From Eledone cirrhosa (lineage: Eukaryota): 64,000 nt of DNA. This document shows, piece after piece, positions 2,637 to 63,191 of the stretch; within the stretch, counting starts at the first letter, position 1; every line of letters begins with the position of its first letter. A program made the position numbers and the translations under genes. The stretch lies in assembly GCA_964016885.1 (NCBI GenBank), contig OZ024740.1:70618001-70682000 (forward strand). Reading direction: 5' to 3'. Below the pieces are notes generated by a model, which had not been told where the DNA came from, ran no database searches, and was given only the letters and a program-made list of their open reading frames with translations.

Positions 2637-5600
2637 ATGGCCAACATCTCATTAACAGATGAATTCAACAACAACAACACAAAAATATACGGCAACACTA
2701 CAGTCGACTCTGGTGAATTATCGATATTACAGCTACCACCTAAATATGCCACATATAATAAGGTAAATATGATAAAATGCTTGTCAGAAATAGAAAAATC
2801 ATTTACAAAATTACGTTGGAGCCTCAAAAACAAAAACAAAAACAAAAGTAACAACATACGCACACACACACACATATACAACACACATCCCAGCAACAGA
2901 CACACAGACACAAACAATTATAACAACAACACACACATCAACATCAACAATAATAACATACTCAGAAACAACAACAACAGACACGCAGACATAAACAACA
3001 ATAACAACACACACAACAATAATAACATACACAGAGACAACAACAACACACATCAATAACAGCACACATCAACAACAACAACAACAACACACACACATTC
3101 TATGCCTCTCACCACCATCACAATCTTAACAAACACACAGACACAGAAAACAGGTAATGACAGTAACACAGAAATAAGGGAAGGTAATAGGATTGAAAGG
3201 AGAGGGAGACTATGAATACTGACAGAGAAAATAACCAGGACGAACACACAGACACACAAAATAGAGTAGATAATAACAATGAGCCAGAGGAAAGAGACAG
3301 GAGTAATAATAAGAGACATAGAAACAACCATGAGGCTGTTGGTGGAAATAGAAATAGAAACAACACAACTAACAATAACAGTAGCATTAGTACACATAAA
3401 GCAGCAGCCTGGAACTCTACTTTTTATAATCCTTCCGATATGTCCTTCCACCTACGACGAGTCCACGCCACGATTTTAGCTTTTAACAAACGCACGCAAT
3501 TGCCGTCGAAGGTCGATGAACAAACAGAAGCACAATTTAGTATAGCTAGATCTAAACTTAGAAATATTGTAGAACAGTATAGCAAGAAGCAAAATAGAAT
3601 GGAGGCCCAGCAACTGGGAGAAAAATCTGCAAATGGCTTGCGTAAGCTCATGCAGCGCTCGCGTAATGGAGAGATAGCCTGCTTTCCAACAGACAAGTCT
3701 GGCAGAATATCGGTTGACAGTCTGCCAAACTACATCCAGGCAATGCAACCCCACATCACTAACACAAGAGAAGTAACACCACAAGAGCATGAGGATAGGG
3801 AAAAAGCCCTCAATGCCCATACGATGATGTGGACGAATATAATGCAGCCCAACAAGAGGACTGCCAACAACCTCCAGGCCTGGAACAATGACGTGCCGGC
3901 GTTGTATGGGCTTCGAAAAGACCATAAAACGGGCAGTGACCCTGTCACTGGACCACCGACACGGCCAGTCTGTGGAGCTAACATTGCTAGTAACTACAGA
4001 CTTTCCTACTTCCTCTCCCTGATCATACGCCCCATCATTGAAATGTCCCCAGATATATGTGACAGCACGGAGGACCTCCTCAGCGGAATCGGCGAGATGA
4101 AACCGATCTAGGGACCTAACAAATTGCATAATAGGTAGTATGGATGTTGTGTCCCTGTATCCATCTATTGACGTGGATATTGCTGTGGAGAAATGCGTAG
4201 AAATGATCAGTGAGAGCAATATTGAATTCCGTGGGATTGATACCAGTGAGCTGGGACTCCTACTTAAACTTACCTATAGTAATGATTATCTAGATACATA
4301 TGGCCTTAGCAACCTGTGCCCTACAAGACCAGCAAGAGGCAGACCACCTACCATTACCTCAATGGCCAATAAAACCCACACAGATAGATGGAACGGGTGA
4401 ACCAGAGCCATACGGCTCCCGATAACCACGATTAACTAAAGAAAATGATTGCACATGCGGTGGGGGCCAGTATAAAATGAACCCTTAAGGAACATATGTT
4501 AAAATTTAATGGAAAAACATATGCCCAAGAGGAGGGAGCAGCCATTGGTGTTAGCATTGCAGGTGACATAGCTAACCTATTCATGGTATGGTGGGACAAT
4601 AGACTTAAACTTAAACTTAAAGAACAATTAGAAGACAGCAACCCCTTAATCCTGATAATGTACTCCCGCTACGTTGATGATATAAACATCGTAGTAAAAA
4701 CACCCCCACTAAAGAACAGTCTGGAATTAGAGAAAAACACCATGGAAAGCATCCAGCAAATAGCTAACTCCATCCACCAGGGTATTAGAGTTACTATAGA
4801 CTACCCAAGTAAACACCCCAACCATCGATTACTTGTACTAGACACAGAGCTCTGGTTAGATACCATTAAGAACAAAAAACAAATCCTCCATTCCCATTAT
4901 GCCAAACCCATGGCTTCCAAATATCTGATCCACCGAAACTCAGCTGTTTCGGACCATACCAAAATCAACATACTGATTGCGGATTTGGTACGGGTGATAA
5001 GAAACGTGTCCCGCATGTGCAACCCCAAAGAACTAGAGAGACACATACAACACTTCATCCACCGTATGCAGTTCTCTGGTTACAATCAGAGAGATAAAAT
5101 CAGAGTATATAGAGGAGCCAGGACCAAATGGGAAAAAATGGTAAATAATTATACAAATGGGACCTGCCCCTTGTATAGCAGCAAATTTTGGAGTAGAATA
5201 GAAAGAACTTGGAATAAGGTTAATAGAATAAACTCATGGTATGATAGCAATAAATACCAGAGTGTAATGTTCATCAATACAACTCCTAGAGGTGAATTAG
5301 CTTACAAATTTAGAAGGGCCCTAGATAAATATAAACTCAATATTAAGATAGTAGAAAGACCAGGTACCTCCATAAAAACACTTATTAGCAATACATACCC
5401 TTTTCAAAGACCTGCCAGTATAGATAAGAAATGTATAATCTGTAAATTAAGCCCCCATATTAACTGTAAAACTAGAAATGTAGTATATAGCATAAGATGT
5501 ACTGAAGGACAATGTAGAGATAAGAATATAGTGTACATAGGTGAGACAGCTCGTAGTATAGGGGAACGGATAAATGAACACTGGCGAGAGCTTCAAGATA

Positions 5601-5851
5601 GTAAAGAATCATCTGTACTCCACCAACATGCTAAAATAGAACATAAGCGTAAATTAGAGAACATAGAAATAAAAATAGAATCTACACACAGAAAAGACGC
5701 AATGTTTAGACAAATCACAGAGGCAATAAACATAAATGAACTCCAACCAAAATTAAATAGAAAACATGAATGTAACAGCAACATCACAACTTACAATTAT
5801 GGACAAAATGAAACACACAAACACATAGAACAAACAACCAGTAACATGTAA
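2637..5851 (+). pseudogene. PLE polyprotein (N-terminal domain, reverse transcriptase, GIY-YIG endonuclease) with frameshifts and stops
   Basis: Motifs LPPKYA..KLRW, TDKSG, KDHK, RPVC, MDVVSLYPS, Naiad/Chlamys-type insertion LCPTR..GRPPTIT..RW, GAAIG, RYVDD, CIIC linker and VVYSIRC..YIGETARSIGERINEH..EA..LN. Frameshifts near 4097 and 4430; TGA at 4098, 4398 and 4478. Confidence 0.9.
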
Positions 5852-12982: not shown

Positions 12983-15326
12983 TCATCATCATCATCACCG
13001 TTTTACGTCCGTTCTTCCACGCTAGCATGGGTTAGACGGGTTGTCCTGTTGTGGGCAGTGTCTGGTCGGCTGACCATGCCTTGCTCATACAGGAACTGAT
13101 CTGGCTTGATTTCTACAGCTGGATGCCCTTCCTAACACCAACCTCATTTACAGTGAGTGCTGGGTGCTTTTTCGTGGCGCCTACACGTCCACTTTACAGT
13201 GTGGGCTGGGTGCTTTTTTGCCGTGGCACCTCCACGGCCACCTTGCGGTGGGGGGGGGCATATTGTTTATATGCTTCAGCATGTACCCATGGGAGGTCGG
13301 GTACCCTGTATTACTGCGTGACGCCAGAAGTCACGGTCGTGTGTCATTGACTTTGAGAGGTGTAGTTGGGTAAGGTCGGCTTTTATCACCTCATCCCAAG
13401 TCATCTTGGGTCTCCCCACTCCGCGGTTTCCATCAACTTCTAGTGCTCTGCACCTTTTTATGCAGCTGTCATCCTTCATACGCATCACATGTCCATACCA
13501 GCGTAACCGCCTCTCCTGCACGCAGCATTTGATTCCTCTTATGCTCAGTCTCTCTCTCAATTCCTTTATGCTTTGTCGTTCACGTATATTACTGTTACAC
13601 ATCCATCGGAGCATGCAGGCTTCGTTTCTCTCTAATCTACGTAAGTCTTCCACCTTCAGCGCCCAGGTCTCACTACCATGCAACATCGCTGTTCGGATAC
13701 ACGCATCATACAGTCTGCCTTTCATTCTGAGGGAGAAGCCTTTTGCAGCTAGCAGTGGTAGTAGTTCCCTAAACTTCTTCCATCCCGTTCTTACCCTAGT
13801 TATTGTACTTTCTGAGCACCCACCTCCGTTGCTAATTCGGTCACCTAGGTAGCAGAAGCTGTCTACTGTTTCTACAGGGCTCTCCCAGAGATTGGTGGTA
13901 CTTGTTTCCTGTGGCTGTTTGCTTGCTGTTTCAGCACAGCTGCTGCATGTGAATCCTACATTCTTAATTAAGCTTCCTGAGATCCCGCTACATCTCTTGT
14001 GTACCCATTGTTTGCATTTGGGGCAGAGAATGGAGTTCCTACCTACACCTTTCCTACATACTGAGCAAGGCCATTTCCCTGAGGGGATCTGGGTTCTGTT
14101 TTCTCGTCTACTTACAAGGACCTTAGTCTTTGTCATGTTGACTTTGAGGCCCTTTCTCTCTAGTCCCTGCTTCCAGGTTTGGAATTTATTCTCTAGTTCT
14201 ACCATAGATTCAGCTATGAGTGCGAGGTCATCAGCATACAGGAGTTCCCATGGGCATCCGGTCTTAAACTCCTCCGTTATTGCCTGCAGGACTATGATGA
14301 ACAGGAGAGGGCTAAGAACAGAGCCCTGGTGGACCCCAACCTGTACGCTAAATTCCTCGCTATACTCATTGCCAATCCTAACTTTGCTGACTGCTCCCCT
14401 ATACATGGCTTGTACCGCTTTCACAAGCCATTCATCTACTCCTAGTTTTCTAAGAGCCCACCAGATTACTGCACGTGGAACTCTGTCAAAGGCTTTCTCA
14501 AGGTCGACAAATGCCAAGTAGAGTGGCTTACTTTTAGCTAGGTACTTTTCCTGTAATTGCCTCACAAGGAAGAGGGCATCAGTGGTGCCTTTCCCTGGTA
14601 CAAACCCAAATTGCATCTCGTCTATATTCACCCGGTCCCTAATCAGCTGTGCTATAACTCTTTCTGTTACTTTCATGACCTGGTCCATCAACTTTATACC
14701 TCTATAGTTTCCTCTATCTAGTGCATCGCCTTTACCTTTGTAGCAGTTGACAATGATGCTACTGCACCAATCTTTTGGTATGGCCCCCTCTAGTATTACC
14801 TGGTTAACGATACGTGTGGTTATAGTGTGACCTACAGACCCAGATGCCTTCAGCATCTCGGCAGCTATACCCGATGGACCGGTTGCCTTCCCTATCTTCA
14901 TATCTCTGATTGCCTTACTTACTACGCTGCCGCTGACTTGTACTGCTGGTCCCTCTATAGGGTCTACGTGGGGTAGGGTCTCTTCTTCCCATGCATTCTC
15001 CTCATTTAGTAATCTATCATAATGACTCTTCCATGCATCTTTCTTCTCAGCACTTGTGAGGGCAAGCTCACCTTTATCATTCCGGATACACTTCTCTCCA
15101 ATGACATCACAACTATCTCTGACACACTGCCTCGCAATCTTGAATACCTCCTGTTTCTGGTCCTCACGTTGTAAAACATGCTTGAATTTTCTATCCTCTG
15201 CTTCCCTCCTAGCTAAGTATACTTGTCGCCTAGCTTCCCTCTTGGTCTCTATGTAATGTACCCTGCTCCCCCCGTTCTTCCATTCTTTCCATGCCTGTCT
15301 CTTGGCCTTGACTGCTTCATCTACCT
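12981..15326 (-). mobile_element. 5'-truncated RTE-clade LINE, young, inserted in (TA)n
   Basis: Uninterrupted RT frame, about 290-nt 3' UTR, (GAT)n tail at 12981-12997. No APE domain present. Confidence 0.9.
13276..15326 (-). CDS. RTE ORF2 C-terminal portion: RT with an embedded PHD-like Cys/His finger
   Basis: KGKGD..NYRGI, QFGF, DLEKAFD, GVHQGSVLSP, YADD, CSVC..CPKCKQWVHKRC..CSSC, FCYLG, RRLRWYGH. The start given in the ORF track (15351) lies outside the element. Confidence 0.9.
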
Positions 15327-15339
15327 TATATATATATAA

Positions 15340-16995
15340 GTAGTTCCACAACAGTTAGTTCACCATTACCGAGAACAATTGTTTCACCTCATTCGGACGA
15401 TCAGCTCGGTTTAAATGAGGTCGTATGGAAAAGGAAAAACAACTGTACGAATACGCATGTGCTGAAACAGTCAATTCCTGAAGGGGAGGTAAACCCACGA
15501 TCGATCGATGTAAGGGGAGATAACTGTGGATATATTATTTATGTTATTCAGTCCAGAATATTATAGATTGTTCATGTTAGTCAATCTGGAGGTTTGTAAT
15601 TACGTAATAGGTGTTTCCAGACGTGTGGACAACGGGAAAATAGTTAATTCCTTGAACTTAGACAAGCACTATTATGTAACTTCTCGGGATATTGATTCTT
15701 TCTCCCATGCACAGCCCACATGACGGATTACCATTTCCGTATGGCTTAGACTTAGTAATAAGTTTCCATTGGATGGCATAATTCACGCCTGTGTCCTTGA
15801 GGGACCATACGTGGCTCGCGATCTTCGTGGACGATCGTTTGTCCGGGTATCTGAGGTCGACTGATGATTCCGGAAGCGTTCCTTAAACCGGCCCTCCGTC
15901 ATACCTACATAGGATTTAACCTCTTGTTGTTGATTTGGTCGGTTAGAAGTGACCACAGCTTCGTAAATTTACAGCGGATGTGTTACTTTGTTGTTGAAGG
16001 GGACAAACCTCAGGCCTTCGGGGCAAAAGCATCCTGGTGGGGTGCTGCTCTTAGGGCTGTTGGTGATGTTGGCCTTTATATTCTTAGCACAGGAGTATCC
16101 TAGTTTCATCCTGTGTCTGTTAAAGATGGAACGGTATTTGTGACCTATGGGGAAGTGTCTATCTAAGAGAGCTAAAAATCTTTTGCCAACATTAGTTTTA
16201 ACGTTGAGTTAGAGGTGGGTGGAGAAGCAAATTATTGTTCTATTAACACGATTTCTTTTCCTATTGTTTTTGGCGTTAGTGGGGGAGCAAGTAATTGGTT
16301 GCGAGAAGCCACTGTTAACTAACGCCGCGTTGTAGTAGGGTGCTGCTCTGTCAAAGATTGTTTTATCAGAGGAGAGGTTAGAGATTCTAGTGCCGATATT
16401 TTTCACGAAGTTTCTAAAAACTGTATGAGGGTGGTATGAGTCCTTATGCATGTAATTTAGTTTTTCATTTAGTTTATTACATCTAAAAATGTGTGTGGGA
16501 AGATCTAAATTTATATCTAAGTAATCTATGCTAACAATGTTGGTAGCTACTGTTATCCTCAGTCCTAACTCATTAAAAGTAGTCATTAAATCTTTTTTTA
16601 AATGGTCCACGTTGTGACCACTTTTATGGCTCTATAGGGTCAGACCATCATCGTGGTGTAAGCCCGTGTTTAAGTCCGGGTATAAGTCCGTGTATAAGTC
16701 CGGGAATCTAGTATCTAAAATAAATAAGCCAACCAAGTCGCATACATCAGCACTATCAAATGAGCCCATTGATACGTCGAATAGTTCTGAAGTAGTTGAC
16801 TTCTTTGTCCACACTACTCCAGTGTCGAAGAGGAGGGTTTTCCAGCAATGTGCAATGATCCTGACTAAATCATGGACGGCGGTGTAAGTGGTAGCAAAGT
16901 CCAGCGCTTTTTTGAACAGGGTCACTGAGATCGACGGGTAAAAATCCACAATATCGAATTGAATGATCTTCGTTCTTTTGGAGCTGAAAGAGTTA
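15340..16995 (-). mobile_element. Decayed 5'-truncated PLE of the YRDD type (Nematis-like by inference) with RT and GIY-YIG
   Basis: FDIVDFYPSI, FDVSMGSFDSADVCDLVGL, GLHHDDGL, IDYLDINLDL, then IYEAVV..SYVGMTEGRFKERFRNH..SHVWSLKD..KPY..CGLC at about 15700-15970. Confidence 0.8.
15368..15410 (-). ncRNA. Degenerate type I hammerhead in the PLE 3' pLTR
   Basis: Stem I ACCGAG/CTCGGT, altered core CTGATCG, GAAA, palindromic CAATTG, TT. Confidence 0.45.
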
Positions 16996-17045
16996 AACCA
17001 TATATATGAAAGATTTTAAACCATATATATATAGGTGTGTGTGTG

Positions 17046-37399: not shown

Positions 37400-40390
37400 A
37401 GAGTATTGAAGTTTGCTTGAAGCATTGTGGAACAATAAGTAAATATCTTTAAGTCGTTTGGAAGCCTCGACAATGCAAATGGCTAAATCTCCGGGTAACA
37501 AGGTCCGGTGGTGGAGAGAGAGATGTAAGTGGGTGTACGTTGAGATGCGTGGTGTGTATAAGAAGTGTGAGATGTGTAGAATGAAGGGAAGAGTATAAAG
37601 GATAAAATAAAAATAACAACACAAGAGAGAGTTACCTTGGGAGAGATTTAATAGTCCCTATATATTTCGGATTCACATCCATCAACTGGGGTTTTTTCCG
37701 GGGTGGGGGAAAAGGTTGTCTGTCGGACAAGTCCGGAACGCGTCCTTCACTGTTTGTTGTTTTGAATATCTGAGGTATTCGGCAGAGCGCGCGTGCGCGT
37801 GTAATGGGGTCGGTCGTACAGAGGTCAGCGGCCGAATGAGGGAGTGGGATGGCGCTAGCTGTCAGTCCATTCTCTGCCTGTTTGTTAAATGTTACTGTGT
37901 GTGTGTGTGCGTGTGTTGTTGTCTCGCTTGAGTGTGTGTGTGTGCGTGTGTTGTTGCCTTGTTCCTCTGTATTGGCAGTGTAGTATGTTGGTATGGTGGA
38001 ATGCTACTGTGTGTGTGTGCGTGTGTGTGTGTAGTTGTCTCGTTTGCGTGTGTGTGTGTGTGCGTGTGTTGTGTGTTGTTGTATCGCTTGTTAACTTAAA
38101 CCAGCCATCTCATTTCGCTTCTCTCTGATCGGTTGTTTATTTGCGGTTGCAGTCGTTTGATAAAAAGCGCTTCCTTGATACGTAACGTGCCGACGTTTCT
38201 TTCAGTCGCTAGAATTGTGACAATGGGCCTTCCGTCTTTGTTTCCGCATTTGTCTATGTGTTTCCGGAAAGACGAGGCCCTGTTTTTAATGTGTTCCTTG
38301 ATCCGGATGTGCAAAGGTCGAATTGTGCTACCTATGTAGTATTGGTTGCACCTGTCACATTCTATCTTATACACGACGTATGTGCGTAGGCAACAGTTCG
38401 CATGGCGTATCGAGCAGTCTCTGAGGGAGCATGCGTCAGTAGATTTTTCGGGTTTCCTGGAGAGGCATCTTCGCAGGGAGGGGCCCGAGTGGGCCAGGTG
38501 GATGTCGAGGCCCTCCCTCCGTATAGCCTTGCGGATAGCGTTGGTGGTTTTCTCGCCCAGGTGTGGCATTTTAAGGAAGCACTTGCCTTGGGTGCTTCTC
38601 TGTCTCTTGCGTCTGGTGTCTCCTATTCTGTCTGTGATCGAGGTAGGGTACCCATCGTCTCCAGCACCTCGAGGAATCGCTTGGTATGAGTGACACCACT
38701 CGCGGGATCGCTGCATCTGTTTTTCATTCGCGCGATCTCGTTCGTGATGTATCCTCTTTTGGCACTGTTAGGGAGGGCGGACTTGTAGTGAACGAATAGG
38801 TCCCTGCAGGCTGCCTTTCGGTAGAAGTTGCAGTGGATCCTTCCCTGTTCCGTGATGTTGATTCGGAAGTCGAGGAGGGCAAGTCACCCGTCTTCGTTGG
38901 GGTGTTCAACACTGAAGTTAATGTTCTCGTCCGTGTTGTTGAACGTCTCATAGATTCTGTTCGCCGTGTCTTGGGAAGATGTGAGGATGAGGATATCGTC
39001 CACGTACCTTGAGAAAAAGGCTACGGCGTTGGGGTGGCAGGCGTTGAGTGCCTTGCGTTCGAGGTTGTCCATGTAAGAGATCGCTAGCACACCTGATAGG
39101 CTTGATCCCATGGGCAATCCCGAGGTTTGTTGGTATATTTGGTCAAGGAATCCGAAGTAGGTGTTGTCGACGACGATGGATAGGAGTTGGTGGATGTCAG
39201 TGGTGGTGAGCCCGAAGCAGTGTAGGTCGGTGGATTGGACGCGTTCCATTAGTATATTGACGGCCGGGACCGAGGTGTAGAGAGCGACTACATCAAGGCT
39301 GAAGGCATATCTGTTATTCCTTCTGGTGTCGGGATCCATTTGATGCAGGCGCTTCAACACCTCCTCGGAGCTGTTAACGTGTCCCGGCAAGGTGTCTAAG
39401 ATGGGTTTGAGTATTCTGGCTAGGAGCCATGACATTTTGTAGAGTGGTCCCTCCACGCTCGATACGATGGGCCTGATTTTCAGGTCGGGTCCCTGTTTGT
39501 GTGTTTTCACGAGGTGGTAGAAGGCGGGTAGTCTGCTGTTCCTCGTGAGGAGGTTGTATCTCAGCTTCTTCGGGAGCTTCCGCCGGTCGCAGATGTTGGT
39601 CCAGGCGGAGTTGATGTGTTCTTCTATCTGCGCGGGAGTGATTCCCGTGACCTTGGAGTAGAGGTTGTCATCGTCAAGGTGTTGGAGGGCCAGGGTGTTG
39701 TAGGCCTCTCTGCTGATGACGCAGAATTCTTTTCCCTTGTCGGAGGGGAGATAGATGAGGTTCTTCGATTTTAGGTTGGAGAGAGTGGTGAGTTGAGATT
39801 TGGTGAGTTTATGTGTTGTGCGTGTGTGTGTGTGTGTTTGTGAAGTATATCCGAGATGGAGTGTTTTAGCCTGAAGTGTTTAGTGTCGAGTTCGTGGTTG
39901 GTGGGTGGGGGGTGGAGTGGGTTGTCGGGGTGGTAAGTGGGGAACTTGGGGGGGGTTGCGTCGGCGCTGTTATTTTCTGTGGCGCTGTTGATGGCGGTCA
40001 CCCATTTAAGTTGGTAAGCGGCTCGACAAAAGTTGGCCTCGATGTTGAGTTTGAGTCTGTCGTCGAGACGTAGTGTGACGGTGAACTTAGGTCCGAGGTG
40101 TAGGAGTTTCAGCTCGTCACTCGTGAGAGTGCCGGTTAGGTCGGTGACCAGGTGCGTCGCATCGTTGAGGTATGGCTCGGTGTTGGTGGTTGCGGCGGTG
40201 GCGGTTGTTAAGTTGTTGTTTTCTACGTGGTTCTGGTCCGTCTGTTCGTTAGTGTCGATGTTCTCGTTGTGGCGTTTCGACAAGATCCACTCATATTTCC
40301 GCTTGAGCCGTTTTTTCTCGTATTGGACTCTGGAGTGGTAGCACTGGTCGATTGCTTTAGTGATTTTCAGGAGCAAATCTCCGGGTGCTA
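37400..40390 (-). mobile_element. Penelope-like retroelement (RT plus GIY-YIG), frameshifted, 5'-truncated at (TA)n
   Basis: LHLGPKF, PSDKG, KTHK, RPIVS, DVVALYTSVP, GLPMGSSLSG, RYVDD, VVYKIECDRC..YIGSTIRPLHIRIKEH..KEA..IN. Frameshifts near 39830, 38880 and 38720. Degenerate HHR at 37656-37691. Confidence 0.9.
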
Positions 40391-40397
40391 TATATAT

Positions 40398-40816
40398 ATA
40401 AGAATAAAGGAACAAAGAGTCAATGTTGCAGCATAACATATTTAATAACATATTACATGTTTCACTGTCGATCAGCTCGAGGAACGATCTATCATTGATC
40501 GAACCTGACTCTGGAATCTAAAGATCCTCAGATATGCCTCAGTATGTAATCTCGTCTCAGATTTTGTGACTCAAAATCCGAGACGAGATTACATACTGAG
40601 ACATATCTGAGGATCTTTAGATTCCAGAGTCAGGTTCGATCAATGATAGATCGTTCCTCGAGCTGATCGACAGTGAAACATATGTAATATGTTATTAAAT
40701 ATGTTATGCTGCAACATTGACTCTTTGTTCCTTTATTCTTATACTATTATACCTTGCTCTGCACGGCATCGAGTGCTCACCCGGCATACCGCCTACGGAC
40801 GCAATTTTCTTGCAAC
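40398..40816 (+). mobile_element. HHR-bearing non-coding module with about 170-bp snap-back arms
   Basis: 40398-40566 is the reverse complement of 40572-40743; unique 3' tail to 40816, then (TA)n. Confidence 0.8.
40601..40692 (+). ncRNA. Type I hammerhead with 61-nt stem II domain
   Basis: ACATAT-CTGAGGA-[61 nt]-GAAA-CATATG-TA-ATATGT. The base of stem II pairs poorly. Confidence 0.6.
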
Positions 40817-50878: not shown

Positions 50879-50973
<95 letters not shown>

Positions 50974-50977
<4 letters not shown>

Positions 50978-51713
50978 TATTTCCTCTCCCAAGGAGAGGA
51001 AATAGTGTATATATTTTATCAAATGATTCTATGGACATAATTTATGATATATTGCTCTGATTATTTAATTTATTAATTCTTCATTGAGCCACATCGTGAA
51101 CGGTTGCCACATATATATCTGTGACTTTGTGTATATGTAAATCTTTATATTTAATAATCTCCCATTAGGTTGAAATGCAATTTGGGCAATATTGGGCTGC
51201 GCTTTCTAGCAACCAGCCCACTCGCCGTAAGCAACTAATCACATTCTTTCTAACTTGACCACTGCCACGTCACGATTCTTAGCCATTTTTTAATCTATTT
51301 CTGGCGGAGATCGCTTTGGAAAATTAACTGTCCTATGAGTTTGTCTCCTGATGAGTTCGATACTCGAGATTTATCCTTAATAGGATATCTCAAAACGCGA
51401 ACGAAACCCGGGTAGGGACACAATCACGGTAAGAATGTACGCATTTCTTCTAACTTTAAATTTATACCTAATTGTTTATGGTTGACGGTATATTTAGTCG
51501 ATTTCTACATGCTGTTGAAATGTTGGGTAAATATTTTATTGCGGTCAGCCGTGAAGAGGCTGCTTTCGTTTATTTATCAAATATTTCTTCATAGGAGCCT
51601 TTATTCTTATAGCCTGGTTTAATTGATTTTTTATGTGGTAATTATGCTAATTGAGAGAGGAAATAGTGTATATATTTTATCAAATGATTCTATGGACATA
51701 ATTTATGATATAT
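50974..51713 (+). mobile_element. Retrozyme-like element: 661-nt unit plus 59-nt repeat, 5' hairpin, one HHR
   Basis: 50994-51052 repeats at 51655-51713. 5' snap-back ACACTATTTCCTCTCC-caa-GGAGAGGAAATAGTGT. Flanked by (TA)n. Confidence 0.7.
51342..51420 (+). ncRNA. Type I hammerhead with extended stem II
   Basis: TGTCTC-CTGATGA-GTTCG...CGAAC-GAAA-CCCGGG-TA-GGGACA. Confidence 0.85.
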
Positions 51714-61180: not shown

Positions 61181-61509
61181 TACTCCGTTTTACATCATCT
61201 AGCTGTTCCCTTGAATGGAATTGGAGATATACAAAAGCGTGGAGAACTTAATATTGCTAACAAAAGTTTATTGGACCGTTTTGCACAACCAATAATACAC
61301 CTTACTATATATATATATATATATATACCCAGGGACTCACATCACATCAACCATTTTACCCCACCACTACCTCGTCACCACGCTTACCCCCTCACTTATC
61401 ATACATGCCAAAACATCCCTCATAATTAACCCACCAATCAACAGAAACTGACCAACATATGAACGTTAGACATTTATATGCCATGTATATTCATTCTGTC
61501 ATTATTATA

Positions 61510-61587
61510 GGTCTGACGAGCTTTTGATTCCAGAGTCGGGCCAGATCGATACAGATCGAACAGATCAGTAGCGAAACGCGCGTCACC
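61510..61587 (+). ncRNA. Type I hammerhead with 53-nt stem II domain
   Basis: GGT-CTGACGA-GCT...AGC-GAAA-CGCGCG-TC-ACC; AATAAA 5 nt later. Confidence 0.75.
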
Positions 61588-61724
61588 AATCAATAAACGT
61601 AATGAAGGTTTAACAAATCATCCCTGTATTATTATTATATATATATATGTGTGTGTGTGTGTGTGCGTGTGTGTGTTCTTATATGTATACATACATATAT
61701 ATATACACGCACACACACACATAA

Positions 61725-62259: not shown

Positions 62260-62317
<58 letters not shown>

Positions 62318-62442
62318 TGTATATATAGTGTATTTTGCAATACACTTTATGCTTAATTAAAAGCATTTTGAAGACTGTATGCTATTGTTTTAGAGTAGTG
62401 ACAGACTCACTTACTTTAATTTCAGCAAACAGGGGGAGATAA

Positions 62443-62488
62443 ATCTGACAAGGCCTTGTTTCTGCATTTATTGATGCTTATCAAAGCC
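62443..62488 (-). ncRNA. Type I hammerhead, U3-A8 variant (inverted copy)
   Basis: Reverse complement of 62761-62806 with one stem I change. Confidence 0.6.
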
Positions 62489-62760
62489 AAGTACTCCTCC
62501 TGTCTGCTGAAATTACGGATGTTATTTTCTTATACAATTCTAGTAAATAATCAGGAACTGATTATACAGAGCGGTTGCCGGTCAAGCAGAAATTAAAAAT
62601 TACAATTGGTGCTCTGAAATAGCCATATATATATGAATGTATATATAGTGTATTTTGCAATACACTTTATGCTTAATTAAAAGCATATTATTTACTGATT
62701 ATTTACTAGAATTCTATAAGAAATTAACATCCGTAATTTCAGCAGACAGGAGGAGTACTT

Positions 62761-62806
62761 GGCTTTGATAAGCATCAATAAATGCAGAAACAAGGCCTTG
62801 TCAGCT
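62761..62806 (+). ncRNA. Type I hammerhead, U3-A8 variant
   Basis: GGCT-TTGATAA-GCAT(caataa)ATGC-a-GAAA-CAAGGCCTTG-TC-AGCT. Confidence 0.7.
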
Positions 62807-63191
62807 TTATCTCCCCCTGTTTGCTGAAATTAAAGTAAGTGAGTCTGTCACTACTCTAAAACAATAGCATACGGTCTTCAAAATGCTTTTAATTAAGCAT
62901 AAAGTGTATTGCAAAATACACTATATATACATTCATATATATATGGCTATTTCAGAGCACCAATTCTAATATATATATATATATACACACACATGCATAC
63001 GTATATATTGAATGTCTGCGTTACGAGGATCGGGAAAACCACAGATCAGAGTAGTATTCGATAAATGGAGGAATGCGGAGTGGATATATTAACATGGTAG
63101 AAATTCGAACGCCAACTCGGCTTGTAACTTCTACAAGCTTGAAGAGATTACAAGCTGAAACCGCCCGCGGTCGAGTCTCTAAAACATACTT

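What the first reader, a model, noticed from the sequence alone, without database searches (positions are those of the whole stretch)
62305..62968. 320-nt retrozyme-like monomer showing both tandem read-through and inversion in one insertion
Seen: about 1.2 units on the minus strand, then a plus-strand copy that also crosses the unit junction (CATTC-ATATATATAT-GGCTATTTC). Each orientation carries a U3-A8 HHR with a 10-nt palindromic stem III and GUC site. The size fits known metazoan retrozyme circRNAs. The monomer contains its own (AT)5, where the insertion meets the genomic (TA)n. Inference: this tract may anneal to the target to prime reverse transcription.
Basis: partly seen in the sequence, partly recalled or inferred. 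Interest (0 to 1): 0.75.

Follow-up and report, generated by a model that had tools for sequence, protein, structure and literature searches.

The report
Twin-primed Penelope-type hammerhead repeat insertion
This is one young copy of a 320-base, protein-free repeat with a hammerhead ribozyme motif that sits in TA microsatellites of this animal genome as two back-to-back arms, only one of which carries a short tail; it was likely pasted in by a Penelope-type jumping-gene enzyme copying one RNA from both cut DNA ends, so it is a new member of a known class rather than a new kind of element.

Summary
In detail: a 320-nt unit, 1.2 copies on the minus strand, an inverted truncated copy on the plus strand, a U3-A8 type I hammerhead in each, (TA)n on both sides. 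It is one of about 190 ribozyme copies of a subfamily within a superfamily of thousands. The layout is the known Penelope-like (PLE) footprint, not read-through twice: in 64 of 67 and 50 of 53 head-to-head insertions one arm ends at the internal (AT)5 and the other carries a 26-33-nt tail; with the (AT)5 this is the 30-40-bp PLE tail. Both arms share one haplotype. Imperfect targets show a 12-14-bp duplication starting right after CATTC, so the tract is replaced by target DNA, as annealing predicts; some junctions lack pairing, so annealing is not obligatory. 5' ends do not pile up at the ribozyme cut site, and this subfamily has an extra A in the core. Circle, cleavage and the autonomous partner are not shown. 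Verdict: new member of the metazoan non-LTR retrozymes (non-autonomous PLEs). The scan found this footprint before, in this and other genomes.

The parts
62262..62314 (.). Left (TA)n target; its last 10 nt stand where the unit's (AT)5 would be
62315..62686 (-). Arm 1 (AT-end arm): one full 320-nt unit plus 62 nt of the preceding unit; 3' end at CATTC
62417..62515 (-). Type I hammerhead of arm 1 (U3 at 62484, predicted cut after 62447); private C>A in stem I next to the core
62625..62634 (-). Internal (AT)5 at the unit junction of arm 1
62687..62694 (+). Head-to-head joint: 8-nt filler that repeats the adjacent ATTATTTA of arm 2
   Evidence: sequence read directly
62695..62944 (+). Arm 2 (tail arm): 5'-truncated unit, positions 71-320
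62734..62832 (+). Type I hammerhead of arm 2: U3-A8 core 62765-62771, stem II 62772-62785, extra A 62786, palindromic stem III 62790-62801, C17 62802
62935..62970 (+). PLE-type tail, 36 nt: (AT)5 plus the first 26 nt of the next unit
   Evidence: definition from PMC3846280, PMC8557442, PMC11167929
62971..62985 (.). Right (TA)n target

Best explanation
This is one insertion of a young, non-coding 320-nt hammerhead-bearing repeat whose copies lie head-to-head in (TA)n with exactly one tailed arm, and it was likely made by a Penelope-like RT/GIY-YIG protein working in trans on the repeat's RNA. Shown: the two fixed outer ends, the shared haplotype of both arms, the 12-14-bp target duplication that starts right after CATTC. 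Inferred: the endonuclease nicks both strands of (TA)n about 12 bp apart; one 3' overhang lies over the RNA's (AU)5 and starts copying at its 5' edge, the other starts 36-43 nt downstream with only 2 nt of AU/UA match; both copy one more-than-unit RNA (circle or uncleaved concatemer) through the ribozyme; the two cDNAs are then joined head-to-head. The start sites are likely set by the protein, with pairing to the tract helping (about 0.55) rather than being required.
For: One-tail rule 64 of 67 classifiable head-to-head insertions, p 3e-16 (75 found in 91 distinct loci, 8 with a broken end); replicated 50 of 53 in other subfamilies (68 found in 88 loci, 15 unclassifiable). At least 6 nt of alternating AT directly outside 55 of 71 AT ends and 60 of 71 tail ends. 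Arms of one insertion mismatch at 55 of 829 polymorphic-site comparisons (6.6%) against 42% between insertions. Neither arm is nested in the other (tail arm longer in 22 of 64). Duplications of 12-14 nt starting right after CATTC in 4 of 7 informative junctions and one more, L279. In a 310-nt sister subfamily whose tract is ACATATATAT, 8 AT ends fall within 0-3 nt of CTTC, 5 having lost the marker C. 150 of 178 arms cross the predicted cut site and 47 exceed one unit plus tail. Literature: tail on one of the inverted pLTRs (PMC3846280), 30-40-bp tail and (TA)n bias (PMC8557442), two internal RT starts equal to the tail, both strands nicked and extended, ribozyme dispensable (PMC11167929). Intact PLE-type ORFs of 758 aa are abundant in this genome and one copy ends in (TA)n with an inverted arm.
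Against: No autonomous PLE with sequence homology to the window unit was found among the 5 candidates aligned or the 60 PLE loci checked; the link is by footprint, plus a ribozyme core and stem II shared between the 310-nt sister unit and the 758-aa family (whole-region alignment only p about 0.05). Duplications were seen in only 5 of 16 distinct informative junctions; one of them (L075) could be a point change. The one PLE studied in vitro starts at sites not homologous to the cut DNA (PMC11167929). Haplotype sharing could also come from gene conversion between arms or from one source locus dominating at a time.
Confidence: 0.8

Rival explanations
1. The template is specifically a ribozyme-cut, re-ligated 320-nt circle copied by rolling-circle reverse transcription, as opposed to an uncleaved concatemer.
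For: Some young arrays are uniform: L208, 7 units with 1 private difference; L370, six units that all share 4 variants. Ribozyme stems covary across subfamilies. Circles are shown for coral, mussel and axolotl retrozymes (PMC7229834) and the model is proposed in PMC4209133.
Against: Other young arrays share variants between non-adjacent units (L270, L215, L278; L341, L356), which one monomer circle cannot give without later conversion. The window subfamily spread with an extra core A in 115 of 116 copies (ascertained partly by a pattern containing it). One locus holds four tandem ribozyme-less 163-nt units with a tail. A systematic register test did not separate the models (17 vs 14 insertions, p 0.36).
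Confidence: 0.45
2. The inverted arm is a DNA fold-back (self-primed) copy of a single cDNA, not a second RNA-templated synthesis.
For: Arms share haplotypes; many joints overlap by 1-20 nt and 5' ends are modestly enriched at the two strands of stem I; self-priming was proposed for PLEs in PMC3846280.
Against: A fold-back copy must be nested in the first cDNA; the tail is on one arm only and that arm is the shorter one in 42 of 64 insertions and the longer in 22; in the window neither arm contains the other.
Confidence: 0.1
3. The units are terminal stubs (pseudo-LTRs) of an autonomous PLE, re-created at each landing, not an independent non-coding replicon.
For: Same footprint as autonomous PLEs; PLE stubs are common in this genome (one search lists many short inverted pairs of the 758-aa family's ribozyme).
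Against: The unit closes on itself in arrays of up to about 17 copies; in 30 loci taken by the conserved 5' motif the sequence ran on into the unit, not into an ORF; no PLE ORF adjoins the unit as its continuation in 173 loci screened.
Confidence: 0.07
4. DNA-level origin: satellite or MITE-like amplification, or assembly artefact.
For: Inverted ends and AT-rich context.
Against: Fixed asymmetric ends, random 5' truncation, dispersal over many chromosomes, and the unit and its junction in independent contigs.
Confidence: 0.03

Closest known systems
Metazoan non-LTR retrozymes (Cervera and de la Pena 2020, PMC7229834, passages read; Li, Clavereau and Pollet 2026, bioRxiv 10.64898/2026.07.22.740005, parts 1-3 of 5 read)
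   Same: Non-coding unit of about 320 nt, low GC, type I hammerhead in each unit, dispersed monomers to multimers, co-existing PLEs.
   Different: The parts read do not describe inverted arms, a one-sided tail or mapped start sites; they link retrozymes to PLEs by co-occurrence and pLTR similarity. Here expression, cleavage and circle are untested, and the core is U3-A8 with an extra A.
Insertion units of endonuclease-bearing Penelope-like elements (PMC3846280 and PMC8557442, passages read)
   Same: Partial tandem, adjacent inverted 5'-truncated copy, 30-40-bp tail on one end, (TA)n bias, duplication of 8-10 bp in rotifer copies.
   Different: No ORF; the whole element is the 320-nt unit; duplication about 12-13 bp; the tail begins with an (AT)5 that matches the target.
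Poseidon element PAc in vitro (Frangieh et al. 2024, PMC11167929, main text read)
   Same: Two internal start sites that delimit the tail; both strands nicked and extended; ribozyme cleavage not needed.
   Different: PAc starts at RNA sites not homologous to the cut DNA; here one start faces a 10-nt match to the target and the two sites are used one per arm.
PLE hammerhead variants (Cervera and de la Pena 2014, PMC4209133, parts 1-2 of 4 read)
   Same: U3-A8 core covariation, palindromic stem III, pairs on opposite strands 100-700 bp apart, circle model.
   Different: Their extra nucleotide is between 9 and 10.1; here it is between 11.1 and 12; stem III has 4 bp and stem I is long.
Athena/Coprina priming by reverse-complement telomeric repeats next to a hammerhead (passage in PMC8557442)
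   Same: An RNA-internal tract complementary to a simple-repeat target beside a hammerhead.
   Different: Those lack an endonuclease and use telomere ends; this family sits in interstitial (TA)n with target duplications.

Membership tests
Metazoan non-LTR retrozyme | Short (170-400 nt), low-GC, non-coding unit without LTR features | tested here: met
   320 nt; no ORF of 120 aa or more over it; sequence
Metazoan non-LTR retrozyme | Type I hammerhead in each unit | tested here: met
   290 copies, 275 U3-A8, 285 GUC, compensatory stem II and III variants; no Rfam hit
Metazoan non-LTR retrozyme | Dispersed copies and tandem multimers | tested here: met
Metazoan non-LTR retrozyme | Self-cleavage | not testable with these tools
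   Extra A between C11.1 and G12 in this subfamily makes activity uncertain
Metazoan non-LTR retrozyme | Expressed as circular RNA | not testable with these tools
   Genomic arrays give mixed indirect signals
PLE-type insertion (EN+) | Partial tandem with adjacent inverted 5'-truncated copy | tested here: met
   75 head-to-head insertions in 91 loci; 68 in 88
PLE-type insertion (EN+) | 30-40-bp tail on one end | tested here: met
   36-43 nt including the (AT)5; one arm only in 64 of 67 and 50 of 53
PLE-type insertion (EN+) | Microsatellite target and short target duplication | tested here: met
   (TA)n flanks; 12-14-bp duplications in 5 of 16 distinct informative junctions
Autonomous PLE | RT plus GIY-YIG ORF | tested here: not met
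   No ORF in or continuing the unit
Non-autonomous derivative of a named PLE | Sequence homology to the pLTR of an autonomous partner | tested here: inconclusive
   None for the window unit; shared ribozyme core and stem II between a sister unit and a 758-aa family

The most novel reading that the evidence does not exclude
A Penelope-type enzyme primes one RNA twice from the two 12-nt overhangs of a staggered cut, one start per strand, and this retrozyme superfamily keeps an internal (AU)5 as a telomerase-like anchor for one of them; a subfamily with a broken-looking ribozyme core spread about 190-fold, so the ribozyme would be dispensable and the circle optional.
Probability: 0.35. Interest if true: 0.65.

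Novelty: new member of a known kind. Interest (0 to 1): 0.42.

Why it matters
That PLE enzymes move animal retrozymes has been proposed from co-occurrence and sequence similarity; here a protein-free retrozyme carries the complete PLE insertion footprint at more than a hundred loci, with start sites mapped to the base. It offers a 320-nt substrate and natural variants (tract with a C marker, extra core A, ribozyme-less unit) to test three open points: one start per strand, pairing versus protein-set priming, and circle versus concatemer.

Tried and rejected
Rfam: no hammerhead hit at the finding. Sequencing runs: no RNA holder listed; three contig sets of one sample were laid and show only DNA-type presence and related subfamilies. 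Pile-up of 5' ends at the cut site: none (3 of 178 within 10 nt, 5.6 expected; 4 of 165 within 9 nt, 4.6 expected); most loci were picked by patterns over or upstream of the site, which under-samples arms that stop there. RNA-editing scars, a lead from earlier notes: none (28 A>G vs 50 T>C among rare variants). In-register test of terminal units: 121 vs 107 sites, 17 vs 14 insertions, not significant. Partner search with two PLE protein queries and alignments to five candidate ends: no homology to the window unit. Widely spaced motif pairs fetched as possible pLTR-ORF-pLTR units proved to be arrays or nested insertions. Literature searches for an insertion between 11.1 and 12, for retrozyme with inverted/tail/duplication, twin priming with Penelope and cephalopod retrozymes listed no paper describing these points; only listings were seen for most hits, subscription papers are not searched, and supplements were not read (those of the bioRxiv preprint are closed), so they may bear on novelty.

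Full report
Observation. The window holds a 656-nt insertion (62315-62970) between two (TA)n runs. The minus strand carries one 320-nt unit plus 62 nt of the preceding unit; the plus strand carries unit positions 71-320 followed by the first 26 nt of the next unit; an 8-nt filler joins the two 5' ends. Each arm has a type I hammerhead: long stem I, UUGAUAA (U3-A8), stem II GCAU/AUGC, GAAA, palindromic stem III ACAAGGCCUUGU and GUC. The region folds far below shuffles (z -8.2, -7.5). Rfam does not call it. The core has an unpaired A between C11.1 and G12.

Family. The genome is 3.0 Gb in 1796 contigs; an octopus-like host is my inference from size and microsatellites and was not tested. A BLAST search gave 2230 candidates, 40 scored, mostly 95-99% identical. 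A 21-mer over the ribozyme has 193 exact matches; a sister 22-mer 834; a shared 5' motif 1668; a shared 3' 33-mer 2383; reversed controls 0. Median rare-variant divergence is 1% per copy. A 310-nt sister subfamily is 99-100% identical genome-wide.

Ribozyme. Of 290 distinct copies from all subfamilies, 275 have U3-A8 and 285 GUC; stem II varies as GCAU/AUGC, GUAC/GUAC, GCUU/AAGC, GCAC/GUGC; the two commonest stem III forms (123 and 83 copies) are different perfect palindromes. That is selection on the fold and fixes the register: 142 copies are canonical, 119 have the extra A, 29 are broken. In the window's subfamily 115 of 116 copies have it (partly ascertained by a pattern containing it). 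U3-A8 is a published PLE variant (PMC4209133).

Ends. From 108 loci I dropped 17 duplicates; 91 loci gave 178 arms and 75 head-to-head insertions. Eight had a broken end; of the other 67, 64 have one arm ending at the (AT)5 and one with a tail, 2 have none and 1 has two (p 3e-16). Tails end at unit position 26 (41), 31 (14) or 33 (6) of 71, each at an AU or UA. In 88 further loci of sister subfamilies, 50 of 53 classifiable insertions (68 found) follow the rule. The (AT)5 plus 26-33 nt is 36-43 nt, the 30-40-bp tail described on one of the inverted pLTRs of PLEs (PMC3846280, PMC8557442) and shown in vitro to be the distance between two internal RT starts (PMC11167929). The plus arm's junction crossing is therefore a start site, and only the minus arm shows more-than-unit copying.

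One template, two starts. Arms of one insertion mismatch at 6.6% of polymorphic sites (55 of 829) against 42% between insertions (72 insertions). The tail arm is longer in 22 of 64 and shorter in 42, so neither arm is a fold-back copy of the other. Two RNA-templated syntheses from one RNA, or from one source, fit best; conversion between arms is not excluded.

The (AT)5 idea. The tract is 10 nt in 208 of 276 junctions and exactly (AT)5 in 179. Where the target is imperfect, a 12-14-bp duplication starts directly after CATTC (L072, L075, L077, L091: 4 of 7 informative among 35 pairs; L279 among 10 informative of 32, one of which repeats). So the tract is not copied; target DNA takes its place, as expected if a 12-nt 3' overhang lies on the (AU)5. 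Against a requirement: three junctions fuse CATTC to non-AT DNA. In the 310-nt subfamily the tract is ACATATATAT; of 8 AT ends, 4 read CTTC then ATATAT, 1 CTTC then AAATAT, 2 keep the C and 1 joins an (AAT)n target. The start is thus within 0-3 nt of a fixed base, and pairing likely helps but does not set it. The other start uses 2 nt of match only.

Circle or concatemer. 150 of 178 arms cross the predicted cut site and 5' ends are not enriched there (ascertainment caveat in Tried and rejected), so cut linear monomers are not the main template. Uniform arrays (L208, L370) fit a circle; arrays with variants shared by non-adjacent units (L270, L215, L278, L341, L356) fit a mixed multimer; the register test was null. 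One locus has four ribozyme-less 163-nt units with a tail. This stays open.

Partner. The window itself holds three PLE-type ORF remnants. Protein searches found abundant families, one with many intact 758-aa ORFs (RT motif read in the sequence, weak C-terminal GIY-YIG hit E 0.034). None aligns with the window unit. The 310/312-nt sister units share the ribozyme core and stem II string with the 758-aa family, a suggestive link only.

Comparison and verdict. It works like a PLE insertion made in trans and meets the sequence-testable features of metazoan non-LTR retrozymes (PMC7229834; bioRxiv 10.64898/2026.07.22.740005); cleavage and circle are untested. What I did not find in the papers read or in searches is the one-start-per-arm rule for a retrozyme, a target-matching tract at one start, and the 11.1/12 insertion. 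Earlier notes of this scan report the same two-armed footprint for other families here and in other genomes; I saw them after and do not count them as support. New member of a known kind; interest 0.42.

Noticed in passing
window 61507-61590 (+): A second, unrelated type I hammerhead (CUGACGA...CGAAAC, palindromic stem III; Rfam Hammerhead_1 E 0.04) in a roughly 300-nt element between (TA)n runs.
   Followed up: no
window 50970-51710 (+), ribozyme 51348-51414: A third hammerhead family, unit of about 660 nt with a short inverted arm and (TA)n flanks.
   Followed up: partly
window 3197-5851 (+), 15580-17015 (-), 38096-40517 (-): Three broken Penelope-type RT/GIY-YIG elements of different families, two with hammerhead-like motifs downstream; a LINE-type RT ORF at 13276-15354 (-).
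   Followed up: partly
window 62835-62843 (+) and homologues: A splice-donor-like AAGTAAGT directly after stem I in 252 of 290 ribozyme copies, with a CTAAT and a CAG in the 5' part of the unit; possibly a relic of a PLE intron; no RNA data.
   Followed up: no
L235 (G000:C1 about 56.078 Mb): Four tandem 163-nt units lacking the whole ribozyme, ending in a normal tail; one site alternates G/C/G/C.
   Followed up: partly
L094, L328-L357, L367-L379: A 310/312-nt sister subfamily, 99-100% identical genome-wide, arrays of over 25 units, whose ribozyme core and stem II match those of an intact 758-aa PLE family.
   Followed up: partly
L330: A sister-family insertion in an (AAT)n/(TTA)n target instead of (TA)n.
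   Followed up: no
L025 and L064 (G000:C3 about 354.21 Mb): The same insertion with the same flanks in inverted orientation 9 kb apart: segmental inversion-duplication or assembly artefact; counted once.
   Followed up: no
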